From a virus, in the IMG/VR virus record IMGVR_UViG_3300050821_003647, positions 1-64,000 of that record: a stretch of 64,000 nucleotides of DNA. One strand, given 5' to 3'. The stretch's first letter is position 1. Every line of letters starts with the position of its first letter. The notes below the pieces were generated by a model. It searched no databases and was not told where the DNA came from. It saw only the letters and a list, made by a program, of their open reading frames with translations. Of this stretch, positions 8,206-59,229 are shown in pieces. The position numbers and the translations under genes are program-made.

Positions 8206-11200
8206 ATGAGTACAAACATCCGCGATTTCCTGCTTCGCGTACTACCTTGGCCCGGGGATGATCTCCCCGGGTTCTGCAATGTGCATACCCAATGGCGTAT
8301 TGACGATAAGACCCCATGGAGCGGAGTACCAACACGTGACGTTGATATTTTTCTTCAGGAGGTGCATCGCCATAACACGATGCGTTCGCCGCCAGATATT
8401 TATATGTGTTTGTCTCGTCAATCAAATGTGAAAACTGTCGGAGACAAACAGAAAGCTGCCAAGTCCCAGCAGAACGCGCTCGCTCTAAAAGCTGTATGGC
8501 TAGATGTTGACGTTAAAGAAAAAGCGTTCCAAACTGTAGGGGAGGCTCTTGATGCAGTCAAAGAATTCTATACCAAATACAAACTCCCGCTACCTTCTGC
8601 GTATGTTGCTAGTGGTGGTGGTTTGCATGTTTATTGGATATCTGATCGCGTACTGACCCCAGCAGAGTGGCAACCATATGCCGAAGGACTTAAATCTCTC
8701 GCGATAGAATTCTTTGGTAGCAAGATTGACGCCGGTGTAATTGCTGACAGTGCAAGGGTTCTACGTGTACCTGGGACGCCGAATTTTAAGTATGATCCCC
8801 CCAAACCGGTGAAACTGCTTGGTATTAATGATGGAGGCGACTATGACTTTGCGACTGCTTTGGCTATACTCCCAAACATTGTTCCTCAGATTAATCGTCC
8901 CAATAATCAATCTCTTGCCGGTACACCTGCGAGTGCGTTTAGCGCTCTACCTGTTGAGAGCCTGGGCGAAGGAATTGGAAACAACTCCCTCCCGCCTTTG
9001 GACCCGACTGAAATGGTCCGACAGTGCGGACACTTCCGTGAAGCACTGACAACCGGTGGGAAAGACTTTTCGCAAGGGTTGTGGAATTTAACTACCCTTG
9101 CGTCTACTTTTTTGGAGGACGGTCATGCACTTGCACATAGGATGGCTAGGGGTCACAGCGGATATACGTATAACGAGACTGAAGCGCTTTGGGAGCGGAA
9201 GCTTGCTGAACGCCAGTCTATCGGTTTGGGTTGGCCCTCGTGTTCCTCTATTCAAGGCGAAGGTTGCAAACATTGCGCAACCTGTCCTATTTTGGCTAGG
9301 AACAAGTCACCCCTCCATCTGGCAAGAATTCTGCCCAAGCCGCAAGTGGCAATACAACCCGTGGCGACATATGTGGCACCTAGCCAAGTGGGAACGCCAA
9401 GGGTTCTGACCCCGCTTACAGATGCAGATATGCCTGATCCAACATATAACGTGGTCAACGGTATTATCCACAAAGTGGTTGCGCGTAATATACGTGGTCA
9501 ACCTCCTGAAATCGAGCAATTACCTTTGTTCCACTGTAGACTATATGAGCCTTGGGTGCAGGCGTGGCCTGATGCATTAAATTTTATAACCTCCGCAGAT
9601 AAGGGTTCCTACGCTGAGGTATGTTTGGAAAAGAAAAAGATGACCGCAATGGAACTAGAACGTGTTCTTTTGGATGCACGAGTGCTACATGTGCCTGAGA
9701 ACATGAAATATGTAAGGAGTTTTATCATGTCATGGCTTGGAAAATTACAGAACGCTGCTGCTGCTCATACCAATGTGCCATTTGGTTGGCATATGGACGG
9801 TAATACCTGCAAGGGGTTCTCCTATGGAAGCGTCCTGTATAAGCCAGATGGCTCACGTGGACCAATTGGACTTATTGATCCTAAACTACGCGCGAAATAT
9901 GGGCCTACCGGCGATATCGAGCCATGGTGGGAAGCCTATAGAACTATACGCAACCAAGAACGTATTGGTCTTCAAGTGATTATGGCTTCTGCTTTCGGTG
10001 CGTCCTTGATGTTCGGTGCAGGGCAATACTGCGTGCTTATGTCTGTGTTCGGAGATAGCGGTGCTAATAAATCTTCTGCGGCAAGGGTAGCCGCGGCGGT
10101 GTGGGGTAGTCCTAAACTCACGAAGGAAAACGAAAACGCTACTGAGAAGTCTGTCCTTCAGACCCTTGGGCAGATTAAACATCTCCCTTATTTTTGGGAT
10201 GAAATCAAGAATGATCAAGCCCAAAAGAAAGCGTATAACGTCCTATATATGGGAACAGGTGGCGCCGAAGGTAGTCGGCTTAATTCAGATGTAACCCAGC
10301 GTGACAAAGGGGACTGGCAAACGATTGTAGGTATTTTCTCTAACCCTTGTTTCGGAAATTACATTCTTAAGGAAAACCCCAATACTACAGCCGGTTTAAT
10401 GAGGGTGTTTGAGTGGGAAGAAAAAGAACCTCCTAAGAATGGCCCCGGTCAAATAAGCGTAAGCGATGCTGATCGTATCTTTGATAGTCTGGATCGTAAC
10501 TTTGGCCAAATTGGAAAACAATATGCAGCTTTTCTGGGAGCTAATCGAGACTTAGTATATCAAACTGTAGCTGCTAACGGACGATGGTTCGAAAAAGCTG
10601 TAGAAGACCCTAAGCGCAATACCAATGCGGAGCGGTTTTGGGTCGCATTTGCTTCAGCGATACAAACCGGTGCAGAGTTTGCAAACGCGCATGTTGGTAC
10701 TGATTTTGATATCGAAGGAATTCGTACTTTCCTTGTTCAGAAAATCCTTGCTATGCGTGCTCGTAGCCGAGAAGAAAACGTGCAAGGTGGCAGCATGGAA
10801 CATACTGAAGATATGCTCACTAACTTTCTAAAATATGAGGAACGTGCCACCTGTGTTACAAAGGGGGCACCTCCTCTTAAGCCCGGTACTCCCGGAATTA
10901 TAAATATCGACCACTCACCACAAAATGGCGTAGCTGTACAAGTTCAATGGGTAAACGGTCCCAACCCTGAACTACGTTTCTCTAAGAAAGAGTTCTACCG
11001 ATGGCTGGGACAGCCAGACGTAAAGGGCGACACCCGTGCAATTATGGAAGGTCTAAAGAAACACTACGCCGCTGTAGTGAAGCGTGGCACCTTGGCGGCT
11101 GGTACCAATCTTGCACATGGTGCGGAGCCACTAGTGTTTATACCGGTGCCAAATGGATCGGGCGTTGGAGAACTGATGCCTGATAAACCAGTGGATTTGG

Positions 11201-11241
11201 ATATTTTGATGGCTAATCCGGATGCCAAGAACGTATCTTGA
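8206..11241 (+). CDS. primase-polymerase fused to SF3 (D5/DUF927-like) helicase
   Basis: AEP motifs WLDVDVKE, GGGLHVYWIS, RVLRVPGTPNFKY. Downstream Walker A FGDSGANKSS and Walker B YFWDEI. Confidence 0.85.
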   Translation: MSTNIRDFLLRVLPWPGDDLPGFCNVHTQWRIDDKTPWSGVPTRDVDIFLQEVHRHNTMRSPPDIYMCLSRQSNVKTVGDKQKAAKSQQNALALKAVWLDVDVKEKAFQTVGEALDAVKEFYTKYKLPLPSAYVASGGGLHVYWISDRVLTPAEWQPYAEGLKSLAIEFFGSKIDAGVIADSARVLRVPGTPNFKYDPPKPVKLLGINDGGDYDFATALAILPNIVPQINRPNNQSLAGTPASAFSALPVESLGEGIGNNSLPPLDPTEMVRQCGHFREALTTGGKDFSQGLWNLTTLASTFLEDGHALAHRMARGHSGYTYNETEALWERKLAERQSIGLGWPSCSSIQGEGCKHCATCPILARNKSPLHLARILPKPQVAIQPVATYVAPSQVGTPRVLTPLTDADMPDPTYNVVNGIIHKVVARNIRGQPPEIEQLPLFHCRLYEPWVQAWPDALNFITSADKGSYAEVCLEKKKMTAMELERVLLDARVLHVPENMKYVRSFIMSWLGKLQNAAAAHTNVPFGWHMDGNTCKGFSYGSVLYKPDGSRGPIGLIDPKLRAKYGPTGDIEPWWEAYRTIRNQERIGLQVIMASAFGASLMFGAGQYCVLMSVFGDSGANKSSAARVAAAVWGSPKLTKENENATEKSVLQTLGQIKHLPYFWDEIKNDQAQKKAYNVLYMGTGGAEGSRLNSDVTQRDKGDWQTIVGIFSNPCFGNYILKENPNTTAGLMRVFEWEEKEPPKNGPGQISVSDADRIFDSLDRNFGQIGKQYAAFLGANRDLVYQTVAANGRWFEKAVEDPKRNTNAERFWVAFASAIQTGAEFANAHVGTDFDIEGIRTFLVQKILAMRARSREENVQGGSMEHTEDMLTNFLKYEERATCVTKGAPPLKPGTPGIINIDHSPQNGVAVQVQWVNGPNPELRFSKKEFYRWLGQPDVKGDTRAIMEGLKKHYAAVVKRGTLAAGTNLAHGAEPLVFIPVPNGSGVGELMPDKPVDLDILMANPDAKNVS

Positions 11242-11255
11242 CATCTCACCATTTA

Positions 11256-11284
11256 CCGAGTAAATTACATAGTAATTTACTCGG
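11256..11284. terminator. 13-bp perfect hairpin at the convergent gene junction
   Basis: ccgagtaaattac-ata-gtaatttactcgg lies between the + primase stop (11241) and the - gene stop (11277). A/T-rich stem with no clear U-tract. Confidence 0.4.
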
Positions 11285-27863: not shown

Positions 27864-29506
<1,643 letters not shown>

Positions 29507-29518
29507 TATGGGCAAACC

Positions 29519-29911: not shown

Positions 29912-29912
29912 A

Positions 29913-30887
29913 TTATGTCTCTATAGTTAGAAGCCATCCAGCGCCGCCAGTACCGCCAGTTCCCGGCGTATTAGCATTCAAACATGATCCGCCACCACCA
30001 CCACCGCCACCTTGTATACCATTTCCACCATTTCCTGCATTTCCTGCTGAATTCCCATATCCGCCGCCACCACCATGACCAGGAACATATAGTTCAATAA
30101 GCGCTGGGGAATTAGCACCGTTTGGAGTACCGGATGTACCTCCTAATCCGCCTACGTTAGTATTCCCACCAGAAAAAGCTACCCCACCATTTCCACCATT
30201 ATTAGATGCAGGAGCGGAAGTAATGCCGCCGCCAGAACCACCACCCGCACCTCCGTTTAAGCAAATGCCTCCTGCAAAAGCTACACCAGTTGCGCCACAT
30301 CCAGCACCACTGCTCCCCACGCCGTAAACAGAAGTGTTACTACCATTTGCGCCACTGCCGCCAGCATTACCAAAATTTCCAGCGGCTCCACCAGCAGTAC
30401 CTGAAGAGTTTCCCCCATCAACACCGTTATTTGAACCCGTACCCCATGATGCTGATCCACCCCCACCACTAGCAGCATTAAGCTGGCCCCCAGCACCGCC
30501 ACCGCCTCGTCCTGCATAAGCTAAATTACCAAATGTAGTCGCACCACCTGCTCCACCATTACCTCCAGCAGTAGAATTTACGGTAGCTGCTATACCCGCT
30601 TGACCAGCAGCACCGATAGTAATAGCTTGAGATACTCCTAAATCAGAAATACGAAACGTAGTATCAAATTTACCACCGCCACCGCCGCCTCCAGCCCCAG
30701 AAGCGGCGGTGCCAGACGCTTGTTTAGCACCGCCACCGCCGCCACCGCCACCCCCTTGTCCAATCGCCCGGCAAGTGGAACATCCTGGTGTTGGAATATA
30801 AGTAGAAGAAGACGTATAAAGCGTGAAGACGGCCCCTCCGTGGAGCCATCTTCGCGCGTATAGTCTGCTTTGGGCGTTGGTGAACAT
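29913..30887 (-). CDS. glycine-rich (GGxGG) fibre-cassette protein
   Basis: ATG at 30887. Poly-Gly runs (GQGGGGGGGGGA, GGGGGGGK, GGGGGGGGSC), not collagen-periodic. Confidence 0.7.
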   Translation of the reverse strand: MFTNAQSRLYARRWLHGGAVFTLYTSSSTYIPTPGCSTCRAIGQGGGGGGGGGAKQASGTAASGAGGGGGGGKFDTTFRISDLGVSQAITIGAAGQAGIAATVNSTAGGNGGAGGATTFGNLAYAGRGGGGAGGQLNAASGGGGSASWGTGSNNGVDGGNSSGTAGGAAGNFGNAGGSGANGSNTSVYGVGSSGAGCGATGVAFAGGICLNGGAGGGSGGGITSAPASNNGGNGGVAFSGGNTNVGGLGGTSGTPNGANSPALIELYVPGHGGGGGYGNSAGNAGNGGNGIQGGGGGGGGSCLNANTPGTGGTGGAGWLLTIET

Positions 30888-30888
30888 C

Positions 30889-31314
30889 TTAGAAATCACC
30901 ACCCATAACGTTGACGCTGATCAGCTTGCCGCTGGTCACGGTAGTGAGCGCAGAAACCGTCAACGTGTCGCTCGCGCTAAGCAAGAAAATAAACGGATTG
31001 CCATCGCTATCTACGGCGAGACCCGGCAACTGTGTACTGTTAAAACCATTCACAGACGGAACGGAGCCAGAGTTACCGGCACCGATAGGCACAGTGACAG
31101 TTCCCAGCACGTAAGATGTGCCACCGTTCGTAATGGAAATCTGCACATCGCGCGCAGATGTATCAGTCGATGAAAAGATAAGCCCCACCAACTTACTACC
31201 GTTTGCGCCACCCGTATACACGGTCTTCTGGGTCTGCGCATCCCCATTAGCAATCTGAACCTTACCGTTCTTCGGCGTTTGAACGGTAACAATTGAGTTA
31301 GGTGTCGTAGCCAT
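30889..31314 (-). CDS. beta-rich structural protein
   Basis: AGGAGGA SD. 141-aa T/S/G/V-rich ORF. Confidence 0.65.
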   Translation of the reverse strand: MATTPNSIVTVQTPKNGKVQIANGDAQTQKTVYTGGANGSKLVGLIFSSTDTSARDVQISITNGGTSYVLGTVTVPIGAGNSGSVPSVNGFNSTQLPGLAVDSDGNPFIFLLSASDTLTVSALTTVTSGKLISVNVMGGDF

Positions 31315-31366
31315 GGTTAAGTTCCTCCTAGTTGATCGAACCTACGTGAAAACTCTATACTTTCAG

Positions 31367-32775
<1,409 letters not shown>

Positions 32776-43011: not shown

Positions 43012-43884
43012 TTAGCCAGCAGAGATTGTCAAGGTCCCCTGAAGGGCATTCACACCGGTAGCACCGGGCGCAGCCCCGTCGTAGAACGTATCCGTGTAGT
43101 CAAGGTTCGCAACCAACTTAAACCACACCGCGCCATTGATATGTGGGTCCCAAGTTGGCGGGATAAACAGCCCACCGGTTGGACCAGTAACACCTTGGGT
43201 AACGTCAGCACCATCATTACCATCCGCAGCACCAGACCCGCCACCCGGAGTAACAATTCGTTGGATCGTTTTGAAGGCGCCAAACACACCTGGACCAGTA
43301 GGACCAGTAGGACCAGTTTGACCAGTAGGACCAGTCGGCGGATTAGGACCAGTAGGACCGGTACCGCCAGCCCCAGTAATGCCCGTTGGCCCTGTAGACA
43401 ACGTAGGTCCAGTAGGCCCCGTAGGGCCACTATTACCATAAAGCCCAGTAGGACCGGTATCACCCTGTCGTGGCTTCACACCTGTTGGACCGGTCACACC
43501 AGTAAAGCTTGACCCTGAAGGACCAGTAGGACCGGAAATACCCTGAGCACCAGTCGGTGTAGTGGGGAAAAATCCAGTAGGACCGGCAACGCCAGTAGGA
43601 CCAGTAGGACCGGTCGAAGGTCCAGTGACGCCAGTAAACCCTGTTTGACCCGTAGGTCCGGTAGGCCCCCGTGGCGCAGCACCGGTAGGACCAGTCGCAC
43701 CGGTCTTACCAGTAGGACCAGTTGGTCCACCCACATTGGTAAAGCCAGCCGTGCACCCGCCAAGATTGACGATATCCACAACCTGCTTCAGAATGTCACG
43801 GATATACCCGCCCCATGCCTTATCATAATTTCGCGCAGAGCGAATGCCAGGACCGTTAAATGCGCCAGTAGCACCGGTTGCCAT
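43012..43884 (-). CDS. collagen-like fibre protein (portal-proximal pair, member 2)
   Basis: [13 protein letters not shown]-terminal domain, G-X-T runs, C-terminal DPHINGAVW...GTLTISAG. Confidence 0.8.
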
Positions 43885-43896
43885 TCCAATCTCCTA

Positions 43897-44511
43897 TTAA
43901 CCAGCCGAGACGGTCAGCACACCTGCGTTGCTCCAAACCGCGCCCTTGATATGTGGATCGCTGGTCGGCGCCACAAAGAGCCAATTGCCACCCTGAGCAC
44001 CGGTATTCCCAGTAGCACCAGTAGGTCCAGTCGAAGCACCAGTAGGTCCAGTCGCTGAATTAGGACCAGTAGGGCCTGTTGGCCCAGTAGCAGGACCTGG
44101 ACCGGTCACACCAGTTGGCCCCGTCTGACCAGTCGGACCTGTTGCCCCACCCGTCGCAGCCGGCCCCGCTACACCCGTAGGACCAGTCACACCAGTCGCG
44201 TTTGCACCAGTAACACCGGTTGGCCCGGTAGGCCCTGTAGGCCCACCAGCCGGCCCGGTAGGACCAGTAACGCCGGTATAACCAGTTGCAGGAGAAGTAC
44301 CAGTCGGACCCGTGTTACCGGTTGGACCAGTTGGTCCAGTTGGCCCAGTAGTACCAGTCGCACCACCAGTTGGTCCAGTAGCCCCAGTGTTTGCCTGAGG
44401 ACCAGTCGGCCCACCAATATTACCCGCATTGATCGCATCCACAACCTGCTTAAGAACAGGACCGATCGTTTGCAAATCATAGAAACGCGAACTGCGGATG
44501 TTGTAGGTCAT
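43897..44511 (-). CDS. collagen-like fibre protein (portal-proximal pair, member 1)
   Basis: [13 protein letters not shown]-terminal domain, G-X-T runs, C-terminal [20 protein letters not shown]. Confidence 0.8.
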
Positions 44512-47353: not shown

Positions 47354-47899
47354 ATGACACAGATAGTCCCCACGCTGCCCGCTGTTACCGTGCCGGTAAT
47401 CCCGGATGCACCACAACTCACCATTGTTATAGTCGCCGGCCTAGCCAGGGAAATTGCAATGGGGATACGGGAGGTACCCGATATCCTTGAGACCTACAAG
47501 CTATCGCCAGCAGATTACGAAAAACTTAAGGATCACGAGGTCTTCGTTAAGCTGGTTGACAGCGCCCGAATTGAATGGCATGCTGCGACTAACACTCCAG
47601 GGAGAACCCAGATAGAAGCAGCCGCCGCCCTCGAACAGGCTATTCCAGTAGCCTACGCACGAGCAATCAGCGGTAATGAGGCAATGAACCATGTCACTGA
47701 CTTCCTCAAGCTTCTCGCAGATATCGGAGGTGTCCGGAAAGACCCAAGCAAAGCCTCCCCGGGAGAGAGGTTCCAAATCAACATCAACCTTGGGGCTGAT
47801 ACGACGATTTCACTCGATGGGTCTAAGATGCCCATCTCAGGTGATCCAGTCCTACAAGCCCTTCCGATGCCTGAGATTGATAAAGAGGAGCGCGTCTAA
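47354..47899 (+). CDS. hypothetical protein (small-terminase position)
   Basis: 181-aa ORF, first gene of the packaging operon. No motif recognised. Confidence 0.55.
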   Translation: MTQIVPTLPAVTVPVIPDAPQLTIVIVAGLAREIAMGIREVPDILETYKLSPADYEKLKDHEVFVKLVDSARIEWHAATNTPGRTQIEAAAALEQAIPVAYARAISGNEAMNHVTDFLKLLADIGGVRKDPSKASPGERFQININLGADTTISLDGSKMPISGDPVLQALPMPEIDKEERV

Positions 47900-49140
47900 T
47901 GCCTACATTAATCAGCAAACGCATTGAGAACATGGATAATGACGAACTATTGAAAACCGTAGAGCTAATCAAACAACATGGGAGCTATAGAAAAACATCA
48001 CAAGCAACTGGAATACCACGTACCGAACTTGAAGCTCGTATGCTCTGCGCCTCGCGGCGCGGGCTAAACGGGCTCACACAGACCCCGCTACCAGAATTTG
48101 AAATTACACAAGTCACAACTGACGGGGATGGCAATCCAACCAGTGTTCAGTCTAAACCTGCTCCACTCGAACCATTCAAGCTTCATGATGGGTTGGAAAT
48201 CTACGGCATATCTTCTTTTTTAGATGCCGAAGGCCGAGTAACCCGTCAATGGATCAAGACCCGCCAAGGTAAAATCGAGGTAGACTGGTCTACGGTATTC
48301 AGTCAAGCCTTCAAAGACTACGAAGGTCGTGCAGTCCCAACCGCCAGCCCTGGCCATCTCAAAGAAGACCTTCTTACCCTTATACCGTGCAATGACTGGC
48401 ATATAAATATGATGGGGTGGGAACGTGAAGTTGGCGAAAATTGGGACGTGAAAATCGCTGAAAGGACCATCGGTGCGGCGATTAACGAGGTTATTCTCCG
48501 CAGTCCGCCAGCCAAAACCGCAGTTGTACTTGGTGGTGGCGACTTAATGCATAATGACGACAACACAAACCGTACCGCCAAATCCCACAATGTGCTAGAC
48601 TGCGATGGTCGCTTCCAAAAAGGGCTTGAAGCCGCCCAACGACTTAAGGTCCATACTATTGATGCCGCACTAAACAGACACGAAAATGTAATAGTTCGTG
48701 TACTTCAGGGGAACCATGATGAATACTCCAGTGTTGCGATCGGACATTTCCTGGCTGCATGGTATAGAAACGAACCAAGGGTGGTGGTGGACTTGGACGC
48801 ATCATTGTTCTGGTGGTATCGTTTCGGAAGTGTCCTCTTGGGGGCCACCCACGGGCACACTGTTAAGCTGTCCCAAATGCCACAAATCATGGCACATCGC
48901 CGCGCGCCAGACTGGGGTGCCACCAAATTCCGATACATCCACGGGTTCCACATCCACCACAAAGAAGTCTTGGCTACAGAAGGTCAAGGCGTGGTTTGTG
49001 AGGCCCACCAAGCCCCCATACCTCAAGACGCATGGCACTGGGGCTCAGGATTTCTATCAAACCGGTCTATGCAGACGATCACCTACCACCGCGACTATGG
49101 AGAGACCGGTCGTGTAAGAGAGGCAATTTTGGATGCCTAA
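47899..49140 (+). CDS. HTH domain fused to calcineurin-like metallophosphoesterase
   Basis: All five MPE blocks are present: NDWH, GGGDLMHND, GNHDE, ATHGH, HGFHIHH. N-terminal SYRKTSQATGIPRTELEARM looks like a helix-turn-helix. Confidence 0.75.
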   Translation: MPTLISKRIENMDNDELLKTVELIKQHGSYRKTSQATGIPRTELEARMLCASRRGLNGLTQTPLPEFEITQVTTDGDGNPTSVQSKPAPLEPFKLHDGLEIYGISSFLDAEGRVTRQWIKTRQGKIEVDWSTVFSQAFKDYEGRAVPTASPGHLKEDLLTLIPCNDWHINMMGWEREVGENWDVKIAERTIGAAINEVILRSPPAKTAVVLGGGDLMHNDDNTNRTAKSHNVLDCDGRFQKGLEAAQRLKVHTIDAALNRHENVIVRVLQGNHDEYSSVAIGHFLAAWYRNEPRVVVDLDASLFWWYRFGSVLLGATHGHTVKLSQMPQIMAHRRAPDWGATKFRYIHGFHIHHKEVLATEGQGVVCEAHQAPIPQDAWHWGSGFLSNRSMQTITYHRDYGETGRVREAILDA

Positions 49141-49474
49141 ATCATCCCCCCAACGAAAAGCCTATAATCGTGGTTATTATAAACATCGTAAGCAAATGTT
49201 TATAGAAGCCCAAATGAAATGTACCTACGGACCATACGCTGTTGATATTTGGCATATGGCGATAAGAGAACAAGTAGGACTTTGTAAAAATTGTGGAGGA
49301 CAGGGACTAGAAAGTAAAAAACGACAAGGACTTGAATATGATCATGACCATATAACCGGAAAATTTCGCGGATTGCTTTGTGGAAAATGTAATAAAGCGA
49401 TTGGGATGTTAGGCGATAACGAAGCTGGTATTCTTCGCGCGCTTTCATATATACGCGGAGATAGTAATGTTTGA
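49133..49474 (+). CDS. HNH endonuclease, endonuclease VII type
   Basis: CKNCGG..EYDHDHITGKFRGLLCGKCNKAIG. Overlaps the TerL start. Confidence 0.85.
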   Translation: MPKSSPQRKAYNRGYYKHRKQMFIEAQMKCTYGPYAVDIWHMAIREQVGLCKNCGGQGLESKKRQGLEYDHDHITGKFRGLLCGKCNKAIGMLGDNEAGILRALSYIRGDSNV

Positions 49475-50921
49475 TTACACAGCCCCACCTACAGTTGCTC
49501 AATTTGCCAAATCTGAAAAATACGGGCGCCTTATTGCGGGACCGGTGGGATCAGGTAAAACCACTGGTGTAATTGTAGAATTATTACGACGTGCATGGCA
49601 GCAAAGACCAGGAGATGACGGGTTAAAATATACACGCTTTGCTATTACCCGCCAGACACTTAAACAATTAAAGGATACGGTGTTGAAAGATTGCGATACT
49701 TGGTTAAGCGCAAACGGAATTGGAGAGTGGAAAGTCTCAGAAAGTTGCTACCATGTAAATTTCGACCGTGTACGAAGTGAATGGATATTTCTACCCCTGG
49801 AGGATGCAGCGGACCAAGGACGCTTACTCTCTATGCAGCTTACCGGTGCGTGGCTTAGTGAATGCATAGAAATGAATATAGACATACTTGGTCCTCTCTC
49901 TGGACGTATTGGACGATATCCTAGCGGAAGTAAAGGTGCCCCTACTTGGAACGGAATAGTCTGTGATACCAATATGCCACCTGAATTAACTCAATGGCAT
50001 AAGTTCATGACTGAACCTAGGATGGATTGGCAAATTTTTATTCAACCGTCGGGACTAGCCTGGAATGCTGAAAACCTTGACCATCTTCTCCAAACTGAAG
50101 ACACTCGTAAACTCCCAATTGGACATCCTGATAGGATCGCTCGTGGGCGCGAGTATTACAATAGGATGGTTCGCGATCATGGTATTGATAGTGATTATGT
50201 CAAGCGGTATGTGAAAGCGGAATATGGCGATGACCCAACAGGACGCGCAGTCTTTCGTGAAACCTTCCGATCCAATTGGCACGTTGTTGATGACACAAAT
50301 GTTATACCAGGATATCCTATACTTGTTGGGCAAGACTTCGGACGTGACCCTTGGTCTCTCATTTGTCAACCTGATCACATGGGAAGGCTTATCGTCCACG
50401 AAGAAATCCTTGCTGAGAACATCGGCCTTGAAAAACACTGTACTCAGTCCCTACGAGGACGCCTATTGCAGTCTAAGTATATGGGATGTAAAATAGCTCT
50501 AGTAGGAGACCCAGCCGGTGTCGCAAAATCAACCCACTCCGAAGAAACTAGTTTTGATCTCTTGGGAAGACTTGGTTTCCCTTGCTTCCCCGCTCCCACA
50601 AATGACCTTGATCCAAGACTGCGAGCCGTTGAAAGTTTCCTTGGTAGACACACCAACGGCGGACCCTCTATGCTTATCAATCGTGAGGGTTGTCCCCACC
50701 TCATTCGGGCGCTCGCTGGCGGATACAGATTTGAATTCGCTGCCCAAACAGGATTGAGGAAACCCACCCCACGTAAGGACGAATATTCCCACGTGTCAGA
50801 CTGTCTACAGTATGTATGTTTGGCCTGCCATGGCGGCATGCTGTACGGGATTGCACGAGAATTACAAGGATCAGGCCGAAAGCAAAAACAACTAGCTATG
50901 CCGTCAGGTGCCTGGACTTAG
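49467..50921 (+). CDS. terL: terminase large subunit
   Basis: Walker A AGPVGSGKTT. Acidic nuclease-domain residues in the C-terminal half. 484 aa. Confidence 0.85.
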   Translation: MFDYTAPPTVAQFAKSEKYGRLIAGPVGSGKTTGVIVELLRRAWQQRPGDDGLKYTRFAITRQTLKQLKDTVLKDCDTWLSANGIGEWKVSESCYHVNFDRVRSEWIFLPLEDAADQGRLLSMQLTGAWLSECIEMNIDILGPLSGRIGRYPSGSKGAPTWNGIVCDTNMPPELTQWHKFMTEPRMDWQIFIQPSGLAWNAENLDHLLQTEDTRKLPIGHPDRIARGREYYNRMVRDHGIDSDYVKRYVKAEYGDDPTGRAVFRETFRSNWHVVDDTNVIPGYPILVGQDFGRDPWSLICQPDHMGRLIVHEEILAENIGLEKHCTQSLRGRLLQSKYMGCKIALVGDPAGVAKSTHSEETSFDLLGRLGFPCFPAPTNDLDPRLRAVESFLGRHTNGGPSMLINREGCPHLIRALAGGYRFEFAAQTGLRKPTPRKDEYSHVSDCLQYVCLACHGGMLYGIARELQGSGRKQKQLAMPSGAWT

Positions 50922-51492: not shown

Positions 51493-51685
51493 GGTGTCCT
51501 CCTGTGTTGGGTACTGCCCAGTATTCCCATACCCCTTCTTCCCTACGACGTTGTACCAGATGAACCTCGCCTTTTTCATACTGCTTCCATAATCGAGTAG
51601 CAATCCTATCCAAATGCTTGTTCCAACCAAGCAACCTATCATACATCAAAAATCCAATATGGTAAAGGATTGCATTATTATGCAT
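51449..51685 (-). CDS. hypothetical protein
   Basis: 78-aa ORF that overlaps both neighbours by a few codons. Confidence 0.35.
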   Translation of the reverse strand: MHNNAILYHIGFLMYDRLLGWNKHLDRIATRLWKQYEKGEVHLVQRRREEGVWEYWAVPNTGGHHVESNRTHRVYSVR

Positions 51686-52196
51686 TGATCAATTCCCACG
51701 CCTTATTTCGGTACTCTTCACTCATTTCGTATCCGATAGAGTGGATTGTATTCATTTTTAGCCCTAGAGGGGCCAATTTCTTCCTTAATTTACACACTAC
51801 AACGTCAACAATCTTAATATCTGTTTCTTCGTCTGGGTTCCCTCGGTTATCCTCTACCGCCATATGAAGCTGCTCCCGCGAAGCATGCCCCCGACGTAAG
51901 AGCACAAGTAAAATTCTGCTCTCTAGTTTTGTAGTCTTAAGCTTGCGAGCCATACGCATGGTAGTCTCGCGATCATCCTCACCAAGCTTATGAGCAGCCA
52001 CTGTAGGGGTACGTTTATCTCGGGGGGTAAGCGGTGGCCAATCTTCACGGGGCATTTCTAGAATTCTGCCGCTATTAACTGCCTCATGCAACAATTTACG
52101 AATATCAGACGAATTATGGCTTTGGCTAAAAATACGAGCTAGGGCTCCAATAGGTACACCCTCATCAGCAGCACGTACTATCTCGGTATTACTCAT
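51678..52196 (-). CDS. transcriptional regulator with OmpR/PhoB-type winged helix
   Basis: C-terminal LESRILLVLLRRGHASREQL...IKIVDVVVCKLRKKL...IHSIGYEM matches the Trans_reg_C pattern. ATG at 52196. Confidence 0.65.
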   Translation of the reverse strand: MSNTEIVRAADEGVPIGALARIFSQSHNSSDIRKLLHEAVNSGRILEMPREDWPPLTPRDKRTPTVAAHKLGEDDRETTMRMARKLKTTKLESRILLVLLRRGHASREQLHMAVEDNRGNPDEETDIKIVDVVVCKLRKKLAPLGLKMNTIHSIGYEMSEEYRNKAWELINA

Positions 52197-52298
52197 AATA
52201 ATCTCGTACGGGTCCGCCACCAACGCCCCCACTAGGCAGAGACTACTCGATGCCAGCGCCAGCGACGGACCCAATTCGCAAGCCTAGTCTGAGCAAGT

Positions 52299-54083: not shown

Positions 54084-54190
54084 TTCACTCTCCTATGTTA
54101 CCGTCACGGTAGATCGGGCTCCTGACCACAGCCGTAGCATTCTCGCGTACCTGTGGTTGGCTTTGTCGGTACGACTTCTACCGTGACGGT
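54028..54190. repeat. three copies of a TACCGT(C/G)ACGGTA palindromic box
   Basis: gttaccgtcacggtag occurs at 54028-54043 and 54097-54112. The inverse accgtcacggtag occurs at 54178-54190, abutting the tRNA-Asn 3' end. Confidence 0.7.
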
Positions 54191-54264
54191 GGAGACAGGA
54201 GTTGGGATTGAACCAACGACCAGCGGCTTAACAGACCACCGCTCTACCACTGAGCTATCCTGTC
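54190..54264 (-). tRNA. tRNA-Asn(GUU): tRNA-Asn (anticodon GUU), CCA encoded
   Basis: Hand-folded cloverleaf: acceptor GACAGGA/TCCTGTC, D arm GCTC/GAGC, anticodon loop CTGTTAA, T arm GTTGG-TTCAATC-CCAAC, 3' TCCA. Confidence 0.85.
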
Positions 54265-55938: not shown

Positions 55939-56015
55939 TGGTCAGGGTGGCAGGATTTGAACCTACGACTTCCTCCTTCCAAGGGAGGTACGCTACCGGG
56001 CTACGTCACACCCTG
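55939..56015 (-). tRNA. tRNA-Pro(UGG): tRNA-Pro (anticodon UGG), CCA encoded
   Basis: Acceptor CAGGGTG/CACCCTG, anticodon stem CCTCC/GGAGG with loop CTTGGAA, T arm GTAGG-TTCAAAT-CCTGC, 3' ACCA. Confidence 0.85.
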
Positions 56016-56038
56016 TTACTGATCTAGGCGTCAACTGT

Positions 56039-56067
56039 TGGATATACGTGATCCCGCATAATGTCAA
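56039..56067 (-). promoter_or_regulatory. candidate sigma70-type promoter for tRNA-Pro and the downstream lysis genes
   Basis: Minus strand: TTGACA (56067-56062), then N17, then TATCCA; alternatively N15 then TATATC. About 25 nt upstream of the tRNA 5' end. Confidence 0.3.
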
Positions 56068-56088
56068 GTTATACATTTACGCGTATAT

Positions 56089-56321
56089 GGGGGCCACCTT
56101 ATACGCTTGCTGCCTTGGGGTGACCCCCTGACCGTGCCCTACTGCCGCAGCAGGGGGTGACACGGTGTAGTGTGTGGATAGCATAGAAAGGGGACCGAGG
56201 CAAGGGCTACTTGCGTGTCGGTCCCCTGTAGGTCCGAGATAATGCACCCGGTGGCCACCACCTACGTGGGACCGTGCTACCGTTAAGGGGTTAAGGTATC
56301 CTTAAGACCCTTAATATTTTT
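56089..56321. ncRNA. GC-rich, hairpin-dense non-coding segment (candidate structured RNA; strand unresolved)
   Basis: No credible ORF. Hairpins: ggggaccga/tcggtcccc (56190-56226), accgtg..cacggt (~56131-56166), ttaagg-tat-ccttaa followed by a T-run (56287-56321). Palindrome ggtggccacc. Confidence 0.3.
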
Positions 56322-56490
56322 CCCCAGAAATTTTGGAAACGAGTTGTCCATCTTTTAATACCCAATCCGTGACACCCCTCCTACCATACATAGGTAACTA
56401 TTTCCTTAACAGGGGTTTTGGTACCAAATATCACCGTGAAACACGTCTTCGCGTGCATAGGGGGCGGCGTCGGGACGGTGTACCTGGGGG

Positions 56491-56526
56491 CAAAAGAAAA
56501 CCCGCCGCGGCTTGCGCCGGGCGGGT
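56491..56526 (-). terminator. rho-independent terminator of the 56789 gene
   Basis: Minus strand: ACCCGCC-N13-GGCGGGT followed by TTTCTTTTG. Confidence 0.7.
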
Positions 56527-56606
56527 GTCACGGTCTCAACCGTACCTATATTGGAGATATTCCCATCTCCAAAGGCTGCGCCGTAGCGCTCGCCTCAATC
56601 TCCTCT

Positions 56607-56789
56607 TCATCGCACCGTGGCATTCATGGACAGCGACACGGGACCATGGGGGGTCTGGACCGACGTGAAACCATGGGTTGTGGCCAAGACCTTGGTTTTG
56701 CCAGACTTGGACGGTTCAGCCTTGGCAACTAGGTCTTTAGTCACCGGGATGATGATGACAAGCTGATTATCGATGTATTCGATCTTCAT
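56607..56789 (-). CDS. 60-aa early protein
   Basis: ATG at 56789 with a GGAG SD. MKIEYIDNQLVIIIPV..SKSGKTKVLATTHGF.. Confidence 0.55.
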   Translation of the reverse strand: MKIEYIDNQLVIIIPVTKDLVAKAEPSKSGKTKVLATTHGFTSVQTPHGPVSLSMNATVR

Positions 56790-56832: not shown

Positions 56833-56859
56833 CATTGGCCGGTTGGTGTTTGGTTAACG
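56833..56859. repeat. 27-bp inverted repeat, left copy
   Basis: cattggccggttggtgtttggttaacg is the reverse complement of 57961-57987 with one mismatch. Confidence 0.9.
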
Positions 56860-56953
56860 GCCGGTAACAAATCACCAATTGACGGTTGCACGGTATCGCG
56901 CGCTTACACGTTCCCATATAGTGTGGGAAATATTGCAATTTGTCAAAGGCACT

Positions 56954-57262
56954 AAACTACGTAGACTAATTATTCGGCACGTTGAAATCACTGGGGAAAC
57001 CGTTACACCGTAAATTGAACGGCATTTTTTATTTTGAAGACTTATATACCGTGTTCGTACCACATGCATGGGACGACGAAAAGTGGGACTATATGGGACA
57101 AAAATGCCTATAAATAGAAAAATGAATATAAACTTAACAATTCATCCCATGTGGTGGAAACACGGCTTATGTACCTCTCTAAATAAAAAAGGGGGTTCAA
57201 TTCACAATTACGGTGAAAAGGTGTGACGGATCAACGGTCGGAATAATTAGTCTACGTAGTTT
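56954..57262. repeat. ~310-bp A/T-rich imperfect palindrome with perfect 22-bp terminal inverted repeats
   Basis: aaactacgtagactaattattc (56954-56975) pairs with gaataattagtctacgtagttt (57241-57262). The inner arms align over about 125 nt each: ccgt(t/c)acacc, gtaa(a)ttg, attgaac..tttttt attt, ccgtgtt..accacatg..ggga. Confidence 0.85.
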
Positions 57263-57280: not shown

Positions 57281-57331
57281 TTGACTTTCTCCACCTTGTG
57301 TGATATAACGCGTTATTCTCACACAAGGTGG
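57281..57331 (+). promoter_or_regulatory. sigma70-like promoter overlapped by a 41-bp near-perfect palindrome (operator candidate)
   Basis: TTGACT (57281-86), N17, TATAAC (57304-09). ccaccttgtgtga (57291-57303) pairs with tcacacaaggtgg (57319-57331), around the ataacgcgttat core. Confidence 0.55.
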
Positions 57332-57351: not shown

Positions 57352-57966
57352 ATGCCCAAATCAGCACTTTTACCACATCCTACCATCCCACATGCTATGA
57401 TAATCCCAGCCGAAGCGTTAAGGACGCGCATTGACCGCTATTTGCATACACTACTACCTTACCGATCGTTAATATATAAACGTAAAGAAAATGGCTTCTT
57501 TGTGCAAATTACAGGGGATGGACCAAATGATCCTCGACATATGAGCCTGCAAGGTCCATATTACTTTGCACATTTCGCCGGGCTAGCGCGTATGTTGAAT
57601 ATGTTCAATGAACGTGGAACTGGCCCATTGCCACCTGTTTGGGTTGTAGACCGTCAAGGCAGAGAGTATTCGGAAAGCCCGTTACCATCTAAATTACGCT
57701 TCCAGGTAATCACGCCAGCCTTGTCCCGTGCAATTGAATTGCTTCGGGCAATTCCACCTGAAGACCAGAACAAGATATGGGAAACGATCAAAGCTAATCC
57801 TCATAAAGAGACTGAGGACCAAAAAACACGTAATTTTGTAAAAGCTACATACCTTGTTACCGACGCGGTAAATCACGAAATACAAGAGCAGGAGAAGGCT
57901 GAGGAATATGAAGAACTCACTGAAGAACAAGAGCGCATTCTCATTGGCTTGGACCCGGGGCGTTAA
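57352..57966 (+). CDS. first rightward early protein, unknown function
   Basis: ATG at 57352 with an AGGAGAAG SD. 204 aa with an acidic C-terminus. Confidence 0.65.
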   Translation: MPKSALLPHPTIPHAMIIPAEALRTRIDRYLHTLLPYRSLIYKRKENGFFVQITGDGPNDPRHMSLQGPYYFAHFAGLARMLNMFNERGTGPLPPVWVVDRQGREYSESPLPSKLRFQVITPALSRAIELLRAIPPEDQNKIWETIKANPHKETEDQKTRNFVKATYLVTDAVNHEIQEQEKAEEYEELTEEQERILIGLDPGR

Positions 57967-57987
57967 CCAAACGCCAACCGGCCAATG
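57961..57987. repeat. 27-bp inverted repeat, right copy
   Basis: cgttaaccaaacgccaaccggccaatg. Overlaps the stop codon of 57352..57966. Confidence 0.9.
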
Positions 57988-58036: not shown

Positions 58037-58219
58037 ATGGCAAAGGAAATCGCGTTGGTCGAGCAGAATGACATGGTGGCACGGTTTGACGCTCTGAGAG
58101 CGCGCATTGGACAGGGCACCACTAGTGATGCCATCTCTATCCGGGAACGCCTGGACGCGCGTCTCTTGCAGCATATCGAGTATCGTGCTACTGAATTGAT
58201 TGACGCGGTGCTGGCGTAA
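58037..58219 (+). CDS. 60-aa helical early protein
   Basis: ATG at 58037 with a GGAG SD. Confidence 0.55.
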   Translation: MAKEIALVEQNDMVARFDALRARIGQGTTSDAISIRERLDARLLQHIEYRATELIDAVLA

Positions 58220-58252
58220 CAAGCGCCAGGGCAGGGGATATCCTCCCCTGCC
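58211..58252 (+). terminator. tandem hairpins after the 58219 stop
   Basis: ctggcg-taacaa-cgccag, then ggcagggga-tatcc-tcccctgcc. Weak T-tract. Confidence 0.4.
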
Positions 58253-58421
58253 TCCTACCAATTCAACAAGAGTGCTGGCGCAAGAGTTTCCCCCAAGAGG
58301 GCCGAGCAAGCGAGTATGGGTAACCAATCCCACGGCGGGAATAAGGGAAAGCGTAGTGTGGCAGTCTGACCAACTAACGACCACTATTGCAGCATTCGGT
58401 CATAACAACGGGAGAAGCACA

Positions 58422-59191: not shown

Positions 59192-59229
59192 GTGCACGGT
59201 ATCACGGTTTAGGTTCTGGTACCGTGCAC
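59192..59229 (+). terminator. 10-bp stem hairpin after the 59173 stop
   Basis: gtgcacggta-N18-taccgtgcac followed by ttgtcgcttctct. Confidence 0.4.

What the first reader, a model, noticed from the sequence alone, without database searches (positions are those of the whole stretch)
56954..57262. 310-bp A/T-rich imperfect palindrome capped by perfect 22-bp inverted repeats at the divergent early-gene switch point
The termini aaactacgtagactaattattc and gaataattagtctacgtagttt are perfect reverse complements. The inner ~125-nt arms remain alignable (roughly three quarters identical by eye, with indels). Outward-facing TTGACA (56946-56941, minus strand) and TTGACT (57281-86, plus strand) -35-like boxes sit just outside each arm. 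The element lies exactly where leftward and rightward transcription diverge and has no credible ORF. Candidates are a replication origin or cruciform, a symmetric binding platform for a regulator controlling both early promoters, or duplicated divergent promoter/UP regions.
Basis: seen in the sequence. Interest (0 to 1): 0.65.

Follow-up and report, generated by a model that had tools for sequence, protein, structure and literature searches.

The report
Palindromic probable replication origin in phage
A 309-bp A/T-rich imperfect palindrome between the two divergent early promoters of a new ~68-kb soil phage is kept as a palindrome in related phages while its sequence turns over, and it is built like the origins used by self-loading initiator helicases, so it is most likely the phage's bidirectional replication origin and early control region.

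Summary
Window 56954-57262 is the strongest palindrome and the most A/T-rich 300 bp in the 64-kb window. It has no conserved ORF and lies between a leftward gene (gpL1) and a rightward gene (gpR1).

Four metagenomic relatives (TerL 80-95% identical) carry a 300-440-bp palindrome at the same place. Each arm is most similar to its partner in the same genome, so the arms evolve in concert.

The parts conserved across genomes are:
- an outer block, TAATTATTC..CGTTGA;
- pentamer boxes ACC[GT]T-N3-ACC[GT]T, which point in opposite directions in the two arms;
- an asymmetric A/T-rich centre.

A 60%-TerL relative keeps inverted boxes around an A/T-rich dip but has no long palindrome. The perfect 22-bp caps are specific to this lineage.

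The phage encodes a PrimPol-DUF927 helicase related to Cch and SaPI Rep. Origins of those initiators have the same layout: iterons facing opposite ways around an A/T-rich centre.

Best reading: a bidirectional origin that also serves as the upstream control region of both early promoters (confidence about 0.5). The main rival is a purely transcriptional operator platform, because the boxes also occur at other early-region sites. MITE, inverton, telomere-resolution site and structured RNA are disfavoured. Nothing was shown experimentally.

The parts
56954..57262 (.). The whole 309-bp A/T-rich imperfect palindrome (dyad axis near 57108).
   Evidence: It is the strongest palindrome and the lowest-GC 300 bp of the window. 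Palindromes at the same position in L005, L041, L043 and L047.
56954..57076 (+). Left arm.
   Evidence: Aligns to the reverse complement of the right arm at 80% of aligned positions. Innermost pairing 57067-57076/57142-57151 (I17).
57142..57262 (-). Right arm.
56954..56975 (+). Left perfect 22-nt cap. It contains the small palindromes CTACGTAG and TAATTA. Only TAATTATTC is conserved in relatives.
57241..57262 (-). Right perfect 22-nt cap.
56967..56985 (+). Outer conserved block A, left copy: TAATTATTCGGCACGTTGA. It includes the first pentamer-like box, [AC]C[CA]CGTTGA.
   Evidence: Invariant or nearly so in both arms of the window and L005 and across four genomes. CCGTTGA is also present in the L047 arms. 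L021 has ACCGTTGA.
57231..57249 (-). Outer conserved block A, right copy: TAATTATTCCGACCGTTGA on the minus strand.
56999..57011 (+). Double pentamer box ACCGT-TAC-ACCGT in the left arm.
   Evidence: Equivalent boxes in the arms of L005, L041, L043, L044 and L047.
57210..57222 (-). Double pentamer box ACCTT-TTC-ACCGT in the right arm, pointing the opposite way.
57077..57141 (+). Asymmetric A/T-rich centre and putative DNA-unwinding region. Conserved core about 57087-57135 (GACTATATGGGACAAAAATGCCTATAAATAGAAAAATGAATATAAAC).
   Evidence: Does not self-pair. Aligns with the L005 centre only in the same orientation (36 against 4 flipped; 45 against 16). The central 100 nt are 30-36% GC in all five genomes.
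56941..56946 (-). -35-like TTGACA of the leftward early promoter PL, 8 nt outside the left cap. The -10 is weak (CACTAT).
   Evidence: TTTACA at the equivalent place in L005 and L041. Not scored by the consensus scan.
57281..57309 (+). Rightward early promoter PR: TTGACT, 17 nt, TGaTATAAC.
   Evidence: Same arrangement in L005, L043 and L047; L041 has TTGACT-N17-TAGAAG.
57291..57331 (.). Perfect 13-bp inverted repeat (CCACCTTGTGTGA / TCACACAAGGTGG) straddling the PR -10. Operator-like.
   Evidence: (I6).
56607..56789 (-). gpL1, a 60-aa first leftward gene. It is followed by a terminator-like hairpin at 56490-56526 on the minus strand.
   Evidence: 80-85% identical in L041 and L043. Terminator read by eye.
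57352..57966 (+). gpR1, a 204-aa first rightward gene. Fast-evolving, no family assignment, always next to the palindrome.
   Evidence: 41-51% identical in L005, L041, L043 and L047. The structure model was unusable.
56882..56894 (-). Extra box ACCGTGCAACCGT in the gpL1 leader, 60 nt left of the palindrome.
   Evidence: The orthologous box is in L041.
56271..56283 (+). Extra box ACCGTGCTACCGT in the non-coding stretch left of gpL1.
   Evidence: Orthologous boxes in L005, L041 and L043.
59196..59208 (-). Extra box ACCGTGATACCGT in an intergenic gap of the rightward operon, inside a GTGCACGGTA...TACCGTGCAC palindrome.
   Evidence: The orthologous box is in L005.
8206..11241 (+). PrimPol-DUF927 primase-helicase, the candidate initiator that would use the origin.
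   Evidence: phrog_25314, primase and helicase hits. Pfam DUF927 at 5.6e-13. PDB 5DGK Cch at 2.1e-7 and 8TCH SaPI protein at 3.2e-4.
51678..52274 (-). Winged-helix (Trans_reg_C) regulator found in most relatives whose contig reaches that position. Alternative candidate binder of the boxes.

Best explanation
The element is most likely the phage's bidirectional replication origin, placed in the shared upstream region of the two divergent early promoters.

Each arm carries, from outside inward:
- a conserved block, TAATTATTC-nn-[AC]C[CA]CGTTGA;
- 7-15 nt further in, a double pentamer box ACC[GT]T-N3-ACC[GT]T.

This gives about three pentamer sites per arm, and the sites in the two arms point in opposite directions. 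Between the arms lies a 65-90-nt A/T-rich, non-symmetric core.

Inferred mechanism: the phage's PrimPol-DUF927 primase-helicase (8206-11241) recognises the boxes, presumably through a C-terminal DNA-binding domain. It assembles one hexamer on each arm, melts the A/T-rich core, and starts two forks moving outward. SaPI Rep proteins (including the SaPIbov1 Rep related to Cch) work this way; for SCCmec Cch itself only helicase activity is shown and no origin has been identified. Because the assembly sits directly upstream of the -35 boxes of PL and PR, occupancy would also couple early transcription to initiation.

The long palindromic spacers between the boxes and the core evolve fast but in concert within each genome. 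Either arm-to-arm correction (template switching on snap-back hairpins) or selection for symmetry could cause this.

Shown here: the anatomy, its conservation, the concerted evolution, the box enrichment and the presence of the initiator gene.
Inferred, not shown: binding, melting and origin activity.
For: 1. The palindrome is statistically exceptional in the window. It is the lowest-GC 300 bp and lies at the global minimum of cumulative GC skew, with the maximum at the convergent point near 11 kb. The plus-strand gene block 47354-50921, which lies left of the element, has skew 0.001. The plus-strand blocks on the other side have +0.075 and +0.080. This fits a replication component added to a transcription component.

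2. A 303-442-bp palindrome lies at the same place, between the gpL1-like and gpR1-like genes, in:
- L041 (TerL 94.6%);
- L005 (93.4%);
- L043 (92.1%);
- L047 (80.3%; 152-nt arms, 86% complementary without gaps).
Weaker versions occur in L006 and L044.

3. In all five genomes each arm's best match is its partner arm (61-87%), ahead of any arm from another genome. There is no left-left or right-right preference.

4. Block A and the pentamer boxes are the conserved islands of the element. They are inverted between arms.

5. L021 and L022 (TerL 60%, about 60% GC) have inverted boxes (13907 plus strand; 14258 and 14301 minus strand) around a dip to 33% GC, without a long palindrome.

6. Boxes are enriched: 9 in the window against 0.46 expected (maximum 3 in 200 simulations), and 97 against 4.2 expected in 557 kb of family loci.

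7. The phage encodes a PrimPol-DUF927 helicase matching Cch (5DGK) and a SaPI protein (8TCH). PMC9371898 describes SaPI origins as follows: 6-12 penta- or hexanucleotide iterons, an A/T-rich centre, at least two iterons on each side pointing in opposite directions, Rep self-loading as two hexamers, and recognition through a C-terminal winged helix. PMC7581432 shows 5-nt iterons for Cch2 and states that Cch (DUF927) is related to SaPIbov1 Rep.

8. No tandem iteron array or other origin-like non-coding region exists elsewhere in the window. Only 35 bp follow the helicase gene.
Against: - No experimental or read-depth evidence of initiation could be obtained. Only assembled contigs were available, and no RNA runs were found.
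- GC skew is largely confounded with gene orientation.
- The same boxes occur at other conserved early-region sites (56271, 56882, 59196). That looks more like the regulon of a transcription factor than like origin-only iterons.
- The element is not next to the helicase gene. In SaPI and SCCmec the origin is directly downstream of it.
- The pentamer alone is only 5.6-fold enriched in the element.
- A test for co-variation between box type and protein was inconclusive. L047 has all-ACCTT boxes. Its helicase C-terminus is no more diverged than the rest of the protein (53-57% against 55-64%), while its winged-helix regulator is unusually diverged (31.6%). However, ACCTT boxes also occur in L044 and L046.
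- The closest cultured relatives (Rhizobium phage RHph_TM27A, TerL 48%) have the same divergent switch but no palindrome.
Confidence: 0.5

Rival explanations
1. The element is a purely transcriptional control platform. The boxes and the outer block would be operators for a phage regulator, such as the winged-helix protein at 51678-52274, gpL1 or gpR1. The regulator would bind symmetrically upstream of PL and PR and switch both early promoters together. The palindrome would have no origin function.
For: - The element lies immediately upstream of both -35 boxes.
- The box ACC[GT]T-N3-ACC[GT]T also occurs at orthologous positions outside the palindrome: in the gpL1 leader, in the non-coding stretch left of gpL1, and in an intergenic gap of the rightward operon. 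It is enriched across the family's early regions.
- A Trans_reg_C winged-helix protein, a class that typically binds tandem direct repeats, is encoded next to TerL in most relatives whose contig reaches that position.
- In L047 an all-ACCTT box set coincides with an unusually diverged regulator.
Against: - It does not explain why 100-150 nt of fast-evolving spacer are kept complementary between the arms in five genomes.
- It does not explain the 65-90-nt A/T-rich core at the dyad, nor the 33%-GC island in a 60%-GC relative.
- An 8-bp repeat period is unusual for OmpR/PhoB-type domains, which usually use 10-11 bp (own knowledge).
- Box type does not track regulator divergence cleanly.
Confidence: 0.3
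2. The palindrome is a self-perpetuating DNA structure with little function of its own. An old inverted duplication of the intergenic region would be kept palindromic by a mutational process, quasipalindrome template switching or arm-to-arm conversion. Only the embedded short motifs would be functional.
For: - Arm mismatches are of random type. Wobble-compatible classes make up 69 of 203, which is the one-third expected by chance.
- Inner-arm sequences are unrelated between clades.
- More distant relatives do without the long palindrome.
Against: - Long palindromes are normally unstable and are lost (own knowledge: SbcCD cleavage, slipped-strand deletion). This one persists at a single position through complete sequence turnover, and it is largest and most perfect in a relative with 80% TerL identity.
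- It always centres on an A/T-rich core flanked by the conserved boxes.
Confidence: 0.1
3. The element is a mobile or switchable DNA segment: either a MITE-like non-autonomous transposon bounded by the 22-bp terminal inverted repeats, or an invertible promoter segment (inverton).
For: Perfect 22-bp terminal inverted repeats bound a roughly 265-bp segment, a size typical of MITEs and invertons.
Against: - There is no target-site duplication (flanks are ggcact and ttgccc).
- There is a single copy in the window. IMG/VR holds none. The one 19-nt match in 596 Gb of genomes is a chance hit at the end of a gene.
- The element sits at the same locus in diverged relatives and has diverged along with them.
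- The outer half of the repeat is not conserved.
- No recombinase or transposase was found among the ORFs that were scanned.
- All independent contigs covering the window's own element carry it in one orientation. The asymmetric centre aligns in that same orientation in L005 and L041, significantly so for window-L005 and L005-L041.
Confidence: 0.04
The RNA would act as a regulator or decoy.
For: - The consensus scan reports an inward TTGTCA-16-TAGACT site at 56940-56967.
- The RNA fold has z about -11 on both strands.
Against: - The fold is equally good on both strands and as DNA, as for any palindrome.
- Mismatches show no G:U preference on either strand (28 against 41, with 134 of other types).
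- The inward promoter-like sites are not conserved in relatives.
- There is no Rfam match even at E<=1.
- PL and PR fire away from the element.
Confidence: 0.05

Closest known systems
SaPI replication origins served by self-loading Rep helicases, and the related SCCmec Cch/Cch2 systems (Staphylococcus)
   Same: - Short penta- or hexanucleotide iterons lie on both sides of an A/T-rich centre, with at least two per side pointing in opposite directions. The helicase is thought to load as two hexamers (PMC9371898).
- Cch2 uses 5-nt iterons, and the DUF927 helicase Cch is related to SaPIbov1 Rep (PMC7581432).
- This phage encodes a PrimPol-DUF927 protein that matches Cch (5DGK) and a SaPI protein (8TCH) by sequence.
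   Different: - The element is not immediately downstream of the helicase gene. It is separated from it by the whole early operon.
- The iteron sets are embedded in a 300-440-bp palindrome whose spacers are also complementary.
- It lies between divergent promoters.
- Boxes also occur elsewhere in the early region.
- Binding has not been tested.
Herpes simplex virus oriS/oriL and the SV40/polyomavirus core origin (own knowledge)
   Same: - Palindromic origins with initiator-helicase sites in inverted orientation around an A/T-rich centre.
- Located in the control region between divergently transcribed genes.
- Pentanucleotide sites (GAGGC) in SV40.
- oriL is a long palindrome (144 bp).
   Different: - The initiators are unrelated (UL9 is an SF2 helicase, large T antigen is SF3).
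- The hosts are eukaryotic.
- Those palindromes are shorter and, for oriL, perfect through the centre. Here the centre is asymmetric and the arms are imperfect.
- The resemblance is analogy only, not homology.
Satellite phage P4 ori/crr bound by the alpha primase-helicase (own knowledge)
   Same: A multifunctional primase-helicase-origin-binding protein recognises short repeated boxes in direct and inverted orientation, at an origin that is not adjacent to its gene.
   Different: - P4 uses octamer iterons and a second cis element (crr).
- It has no long palindrome.
- The alpha protein is of a different primase and helicase type.
Quasipalindrome correction and arm-to-arm gene conversion of inverted repeats (own knowledge)
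   Same: It explains why the two arms of one genome stay more alike than orthologous arms of different genomes.
   Different: It is a mutational mechanism, not a function. It does not explain the fixed position, the conserved boxes or the A/T-rich core.

Membership tests
SaPI/Cch-type iteron origin | The element's genome encodes a cognate self-loading initiator helicase (Rep, Cch or DUF927 type). | tested here: met
   The protein at 8206-11241 hits Pfam DUF927 at 5.6e-13. It also matches PDB 5DGK (Cch) at 2.1e-7 and 8TCH (SaPI protein) at 3.2e-4.
SaPI/Cch-type iteron origin | Six to twelve penta- or hexanucleotide iterons. | tested here: inconclusive
   There are about three ACC[GT]T-like pentamers per arm, block A plus the double box. 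The pentamer alone is only 5.6-fold enriched. The composite box is strongly enriched.
SaPI/Cch-type iteron origin | An A/T-rich centre with at least two iterons on each side pointing in opposite directions. | tested here: met
   Boxes lie at 56999-57011 (plus strand) and 57210-57222 (minus strand) around the 65-nt centre. The central 100 nt are 36% GC. The same layout is seen in L005, L043, L044, L047 and L021.
SaPI/Cch-type iteron origin | The origin lies directly downstream of the helicase gene. | tested here: not met
   The helicase gene ends at 11241 and the next gene starts at 11277. The element is at 56954-57262.
SaPI/Cch-type iteron origin | The initiator's C-terminal winged helix binds the iterons and melts the centre without ATP. 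| not testable with these tools
   This needs EMSA, footprinting or permanganate probing.
MITE / non-autonomous IS | Terminal inverted repeats flanked by a target-site duplication. | tested here: not met
   Terminal repeats are present, but the flanks ggcact and ttgccc are not duplicated.
MITE / non-autonomous IS | Multiple dispersed copies in the phage, the host or related genomes. | tested here: not met
   Two matches in the window, which are the two caps themselves. None in IMG/VR. One chance 19-mer in the GTDB genomes.
Invertible promoter (inverton) | Both orientations of the segment are present in the population, and a site-specific recombinase is encoded nearby. | tested here: inconclusive
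   Only one orientation appears in all contigs covering the window's own element, and the centre aligns in that orientation in L005 and L041. No recombinase was seen among the ORFs scanned. Raw reads were not available, so a minority orientation cannot be excluded.
Protelomerase target site (telRL) | Perfect dyad symmetry through the centre, and a protelomerase gene. | tested here: not met
   The centre 57077-57141 does not self-pair (self score 8). No protelomerase was found among the ORFs that were scanned.
Structured non-coding RNA | Pairing is maintained with wobble-tolerant covariation on the transcribed strand, or the sequence matches a known family. | tested here: not met
   Mismatch classes are random: G:T on the plus strand 28, on the minus strand 41, other 134. 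There is no Rfam hit even at E<=1.

The most novel reading that the evidence does not exclude
The long palindrome itself, and not only the short boxes, is required for initiation. After the A/T-rich core is melted, the complementary arms would snap back into hairpins on each strand. These hairpins would position or prime the two PrimPol-helicase hexamers, or act as single-strand promoters. Selection for this intrastrand pairing would then drive the concerted evolution of the arms. That would make this a bacteriophage counterpart of the herpesvirus oriL-type palindromic origin, maintained across a whole clade of soil phages.
Probability: 0.15. Interest if true: 0.75.

Novelty: new variant of a known kind. 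Interest (0 to 1): 0.55.

Why it matters
Replication origins are unknown for almost all uncultured phages. Here a single sequence signature could mark the origin of an abundant family of roughly 66-68-kb soil phages that encode PrimPol-DUF927 initiators. The signature is inverted ACC[GT]T-N3-ACC[GT]T boxes and a CCGTTGA block around an A/T-rich core at the early divergent switch.

The family also offers a natural series. Some members have only inverted boxes, and others have a 390-bp palindrome with 86% complementary arms. With this series one can ask whether arm complementarity is selected or is simply a by-product of template switching.

If the origin function is confirmed, the element would extend the SaPI/SCCmec self-loading-helicase model to lytic-type phages. 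It would also provide a compact origin-plus-initiator pair for building replicons.

Tried and rejected
- **GenBank phages.** A DNA search found no homologue of the region. Near mode gave nothing and distant mode gave only tRNA hits. The closest cultured phages (Rhizobium RHph_TM27A group, TerL 48%) share the divergent switch but not the palindrome.
- **gpR1 as a handle.** It has no PHROG or Pfam family and no database homologue, and its peptides found nothing in IMG/VR. The single-sequence AlphaFold model had mean pLDDT 41.5 and was not used.
- **Identical contigs.** ENA contigs L001-L003 and the Logan contigs carry no variation in the element.
- **MITE idea.** Rejected: single copy, no target-site duplication, and only a chance hit in the genome collection.
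- **Arm profile search.** An nhmmer profile of the arms finds the window, L005 and L041, plus one borderline hit (E = 0.012) at the start of L044, so sequence homology of the arms does not extend reliably beyond them. The remaining relatives were recognised by position, self-complementarity and the short motifs.
- **T7-like promoter idea.** ACTATATGGGA occurs at 57088 (plus strand) and 56912 (minus strand) and resembles T7-class promoters. I dropped this because no phage RNA polymerase was found among the large ORFs.
- **Short repeated k-mers.** No 6-8-mer is repeated within the element and shared with L005, apart from what the palindrome itself produces.
- **Inward-facing promoters in the arms.** TTGCTA-17-TATAAT in L005 and TTGAAA-17-TATTAC in L041 are not conserved in the window.
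- **Co-variation of box type with helicase C-terminus or regulator.** Inconclusive.
- **RNA-seq.** No RNA run holds the region.
- **Rfam.** Only the tRNAs match.
- **Greedy ORF-based detection of divergent gaps.** Unreliable because of spurious ORFs.
Full report
**1. The observation**

AAACTACGTAGACTAATTATTC at 56954-56975 is the exact reverse complement of 57241-57262, and the repeat extends to 32 nt at 91%. The 22-mer occurs nowhere else in the window, with 0 matches expected by chance.

Inward of the caps the arms stay alignable to about 57076 and 57142. Identity is 76/95 = 80% of aligned positions, or 70% counting gaps. The global arm score is 39, against -18.7 +/- 5.5 for shuffled arms. 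A 65-nt centre (57077-57141) is not self-complementary.

In a 400-bp sliding scan of self-complementarity the element scores 74, against a window median of 14 and a 99th percentile of 30. It is 37.9% GC in a 48-51% GC genome and contains the lowest-GC 300 bp of the window. As a single strand it folds with z about -11 as DNA or RNA, on either strand. That is what any palindrome does, and it says nothing about which molecule matters.

**2. Context**

The window is most of a ~67.7-kb phage genome from soil metagenomes. It encodes:
- a DNA polymerase, an SNF2 helicase and a PrimPol-DUF927 primase-helicase;
- a PD-(D/E)XK nuclease;
- portal, major head and internal virion proteins, and collagen-like tail fibres;
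- an exonuclease and a large terminase.

It has no DNA-level relative in GenBank phages. The nearest cultured phages are the Rhizobium RHph_TM27A group, with TerL 48% and primase-helicase 32% identical.

The element lies between two genes. gpL1 (56789 to 56607, 60 aa) is on the minus strand and is followed by a terminator-like hairpin. gpR1 (57352-57966, 204 aa) is on the plus strand and has no family assignment. The ORFs inside the element are not conserved in relatives, whereas gpL1 and gpR1 are.

The rightward promoter is TTGACT-17 nt-TGaTATAAC. TTGAC[AT]-N17-TAnnnn recurs to the right of the palindrome in L005, L043 and L047, and L041 has TTGACT-N17-TAGAAG. The leftward TTGACA is 8 nt outside the left cap, but its -10 is weak. 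The consensus promoter scan scored neither outward promoter. Both promoters fire away from the element, so it is upstream DNA for both.

**3. Relatives**

A TerL search of IMG/VR and lookups of lysozyme homologues retrieved a family of soil phages. A palindrome sits at the same position in four of them:

| Locus | TerL identity | Palindrome |
|---|---|---|
| L041 | 94.6% | 303 bp |
| L005 | 93.4% | 328 bp |
| L043 | 92.1% | 442 bp |
| L047 | 80.3% | 391 bp; 152-nt arms, 86% complementary without gaps; 87-nt centre |

L006 (80.5%) has only 64-nt arms at 75%. The L044 contig (77.5%) starts inside a weak version. Relatives at 59-65% TerL and the Rhizobium phages show no long palindrome there.

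A profile of the window and L005 arms also finds L041, gives only a borderline hit in L044, and finds none of the others. The arm sequence has therefore turned over while the palindromic form stayed.

**4. Concerted evolution of the arms**

In all five genomes each arm's best match is the other arm of the same genome: 61, 76, 62, 67 and 87% in a common scoring scheme. Between genomes the figures are mostly 20-50%.

For the window and L005, within-genome identity is 80% and 90.5%. Between genomes it is 70-77%, with no left-left or right-right preference.

The mismatches between arms are of random type. G:T on the plus strand occurs 28 times, G:T on the minus strand 41 times, and other types 134 times. 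The wobble-compatible fraction is 34%, which is the chance value. This argues against a selected RNA fold. It leaves two options: DNA-level arm correction, or symmetric protein constraints.

**5. What is conserved**

A four-genome alignment shows conserved islands. The first is an outer block, TAATTATTC-nn-[AC]C[CA]CGTTGA. The second, 7-15 nt further in, is a double pentamer box ACC[GT]T-N3-ACC[GT]T. Both are present in both arms and therefore point in opposite directions.

L047 keeps the same order with CCGTTGA followed by ACCTT-N3-ACCTT.

The centre is A/T-rich in all five genomes, at 30-36% GC over 100 nt. Its similarity to the window centre is always higher in the same orientation than flipped: 45/16, 27/14, 23/14 and 30/12. 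The similarity is significant only for window-L005 and L005-L041.

The outer AAACTACGTAGAC is specific to this lineage.

**6. The box motif across the family**

The window holds 9 boxes, against 0.46 expected (maximum 3 in 200 Markov simulations). Six of them lie at 54.3-59.2 kb. Over 557 kb of family loci there are 97 boxes against 4.2 expected.

Orthologous extra boxes occur in three places: the gpL1 leader (56882), the non-coding stretch left of gpL1 (56271), and an intergenic gap of the rightward operon (59196).

In L021 and L022 (TerL 60%, about 60% GC), boxes at 13907 (plus strand) and at 14258 and 14301 (minus strand) flank a dip to 33% GC. This is the same layout without the long palindrome.

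**7. Mechanism**

The phage's 1011-aa primase-helicase carries DUF927. It matches the solved Cch helicase of SCCmec (5DGK, 2.1e-7) and a SaPI protein (8TCH, 3.2e-4).

PMC9371898 describes SaPI origins and their Rep initiators as follows:
- Rep proteins are self-loading initiator helicases.
- A C-terminal winged helix recognises penta- or hexanucleotide iterons.
- Origins have 6-12 iterons with an A/T-rich region at the centre.
- At least two iterons on each side point in opposite directions.
- Two hexamers are thought to load, one on each side.

PMC7581432 relates Cch (DUF927) to SaPIbov1 Rep and shows 5-nt iterons for Cch2. The anatomy found here fits that description.

Other observations point the same way:
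- The element lies at the global minimum of cumulative GC skew.
- The plus-strand genes to its left have skew near zero, while the plus-strand blocks on the other side have about +0.08. This evidence is weak, because skew is largely confounded with gene orientation.
- There is no other repeat-rich non-coding candidate in the window.
- There is no room for an origin after the helicase gene.

I therefore favour a bidirectional origin embedded in the shared upstream region of PL and PR, with confidence about 0.5. Binding, melting and initiation are inferred, not shown.

**8. Rivals**

The main rival (0.3) is a purely transcriptional operator platform. The dispersed extra boxes look like a regulon. 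A Trans_reg_C winged-helix protein is encoded next to TerL in most relatives whose contig reaches that position. In L047, all-ACCTT boxes coincide with an unusually diverged regulator (31.6%), while the helicase C-terminus there is no more diverged than the rest of the protein. However, ACCTT boxes also occur in L044 and L046, so this co-variation test is inconclusive. This rival also fails to explain the complementary spacers and the A/T-rich core.

The other rivals score lower:
- **Neutral, self-correcting palindrome (0.1).** It fits the random mismatch spectrum, but not the fixed position and persistence.
- **MITE or inverton (0.04).** Disfavoured by the single copy, the absence of a target-site duplication, the absence of a recombinase among scanned ORFs, one orientation in all contigs, and the non-conserved outer repeat.
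- **Hairpin RNA (0.05).** Disfavoured by the mismatch spectrum, the absence of an Rfam match, and the lack of conserved inward promoters.
- **Telomere-resolution site.** Excluded by the asymmetric centre.

**9. Comparison with known systems, and verdict**

In function the closest match is the SaPI/SCCmec type of origin. Herpesvirus oriS/oriL and the SV40 core origin are analogues: palindromic origins with inverted initiator sites and an A/T-rich centre, placed between divergent promoters (own knowledge).

This element differs from the SaPI type in four ways. It lies far from the initiator gene. It is embedded in a 300-440-bp palindrome that evolves in concert. It lies between early promoters. 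Its boxes are shared with other early-region sites.

I class it as a new variant of a known kind. It is of moderate interest and directly testable.

Noticed in passing
window 56833-56862 and 57958-57987: A second inverted repeat (30 nt, 93%) places the same ~80-nt sequence in the 5' leaders just upstream of the start codons of gpL1 (leftward) and gpR2 (58028, rightward). It is the best-conserved non-coding block across the window, L005, L041 and L043. It may be a shared leader RNA element or operator. There is no Rfam match.
   Followed up: partly
window 57291-57331: A perfect 13-bp inverted repeat, CCACCTTGTGTGA-N15-TCACACAAGGTGG, straddles the -10 of the rightward early promoter. It looks like a dimeric repressor operator. 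An equivalent was not evident in L005.
   Followed up: partly
window 56016-56606: A ~590-nt GC-rich non-coding stretch lies between tRNA-Pro and gpL1. It has a terminator-like hairpin (56490-56526, minus strand) after gpL1 and a conserved ACCGTGCTACCGT box at 56271. Parts of it are conserved in L041 and L043. It could hold a promoter for the next leftward operon or a non-coding RNA.
   Followed up: no
window 2584-3156: This ORF matches Pfam dGTP_diPhyd_N (dATP/dGTP diphosphohydrolase, MazZ-like, 1e-25). In some phages this family accompanies modified-base (2-aminoadenine) pathways. No PurZ-like gene was looked for.
   Followed up: no
window 54190-54264 and 55939-56015: Two phage tRNA genes (Asn-GTT and Pro-TGG) lie on the minus strand within the leftward early/middle operon.
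   Followed up: yes
L047 2328-2718 (ENA ERZ25039470 contig_100514): A relative with only 80% TerL identity carries the longest and most perfect version of the palindrome: 152-nt arms, 86% complementary without gaps. All four of its boxes, including two outside the palindrome, are of the ACCTT type rather than ACCGT.
   Followed up: partly
L041 4292-4639 and L043 2696-3034: The deposited gene calls place a 112-115-aa ORF on the strand opposite gpL1. The conserved 60-aa gpL1 reading frame (80-85% identical, with conservative substitutions) indicates that the long call is spurious.
   Followed up: yes
window 28680-32663 and 43292-44358: Many 9-nt-period tandem repeats encode collagen-like Gly-X-Y tracts in several tail-fibre-like genes.
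   Followed up: no
window 58047-58258: One soil run (X2) holds a second contig about 90% identical over gpR2 (22 differences in about 210 nt). A closely related variant phage therefore co-occurs in that sample. No variant contig covered the palindrome.
   Followed up: no
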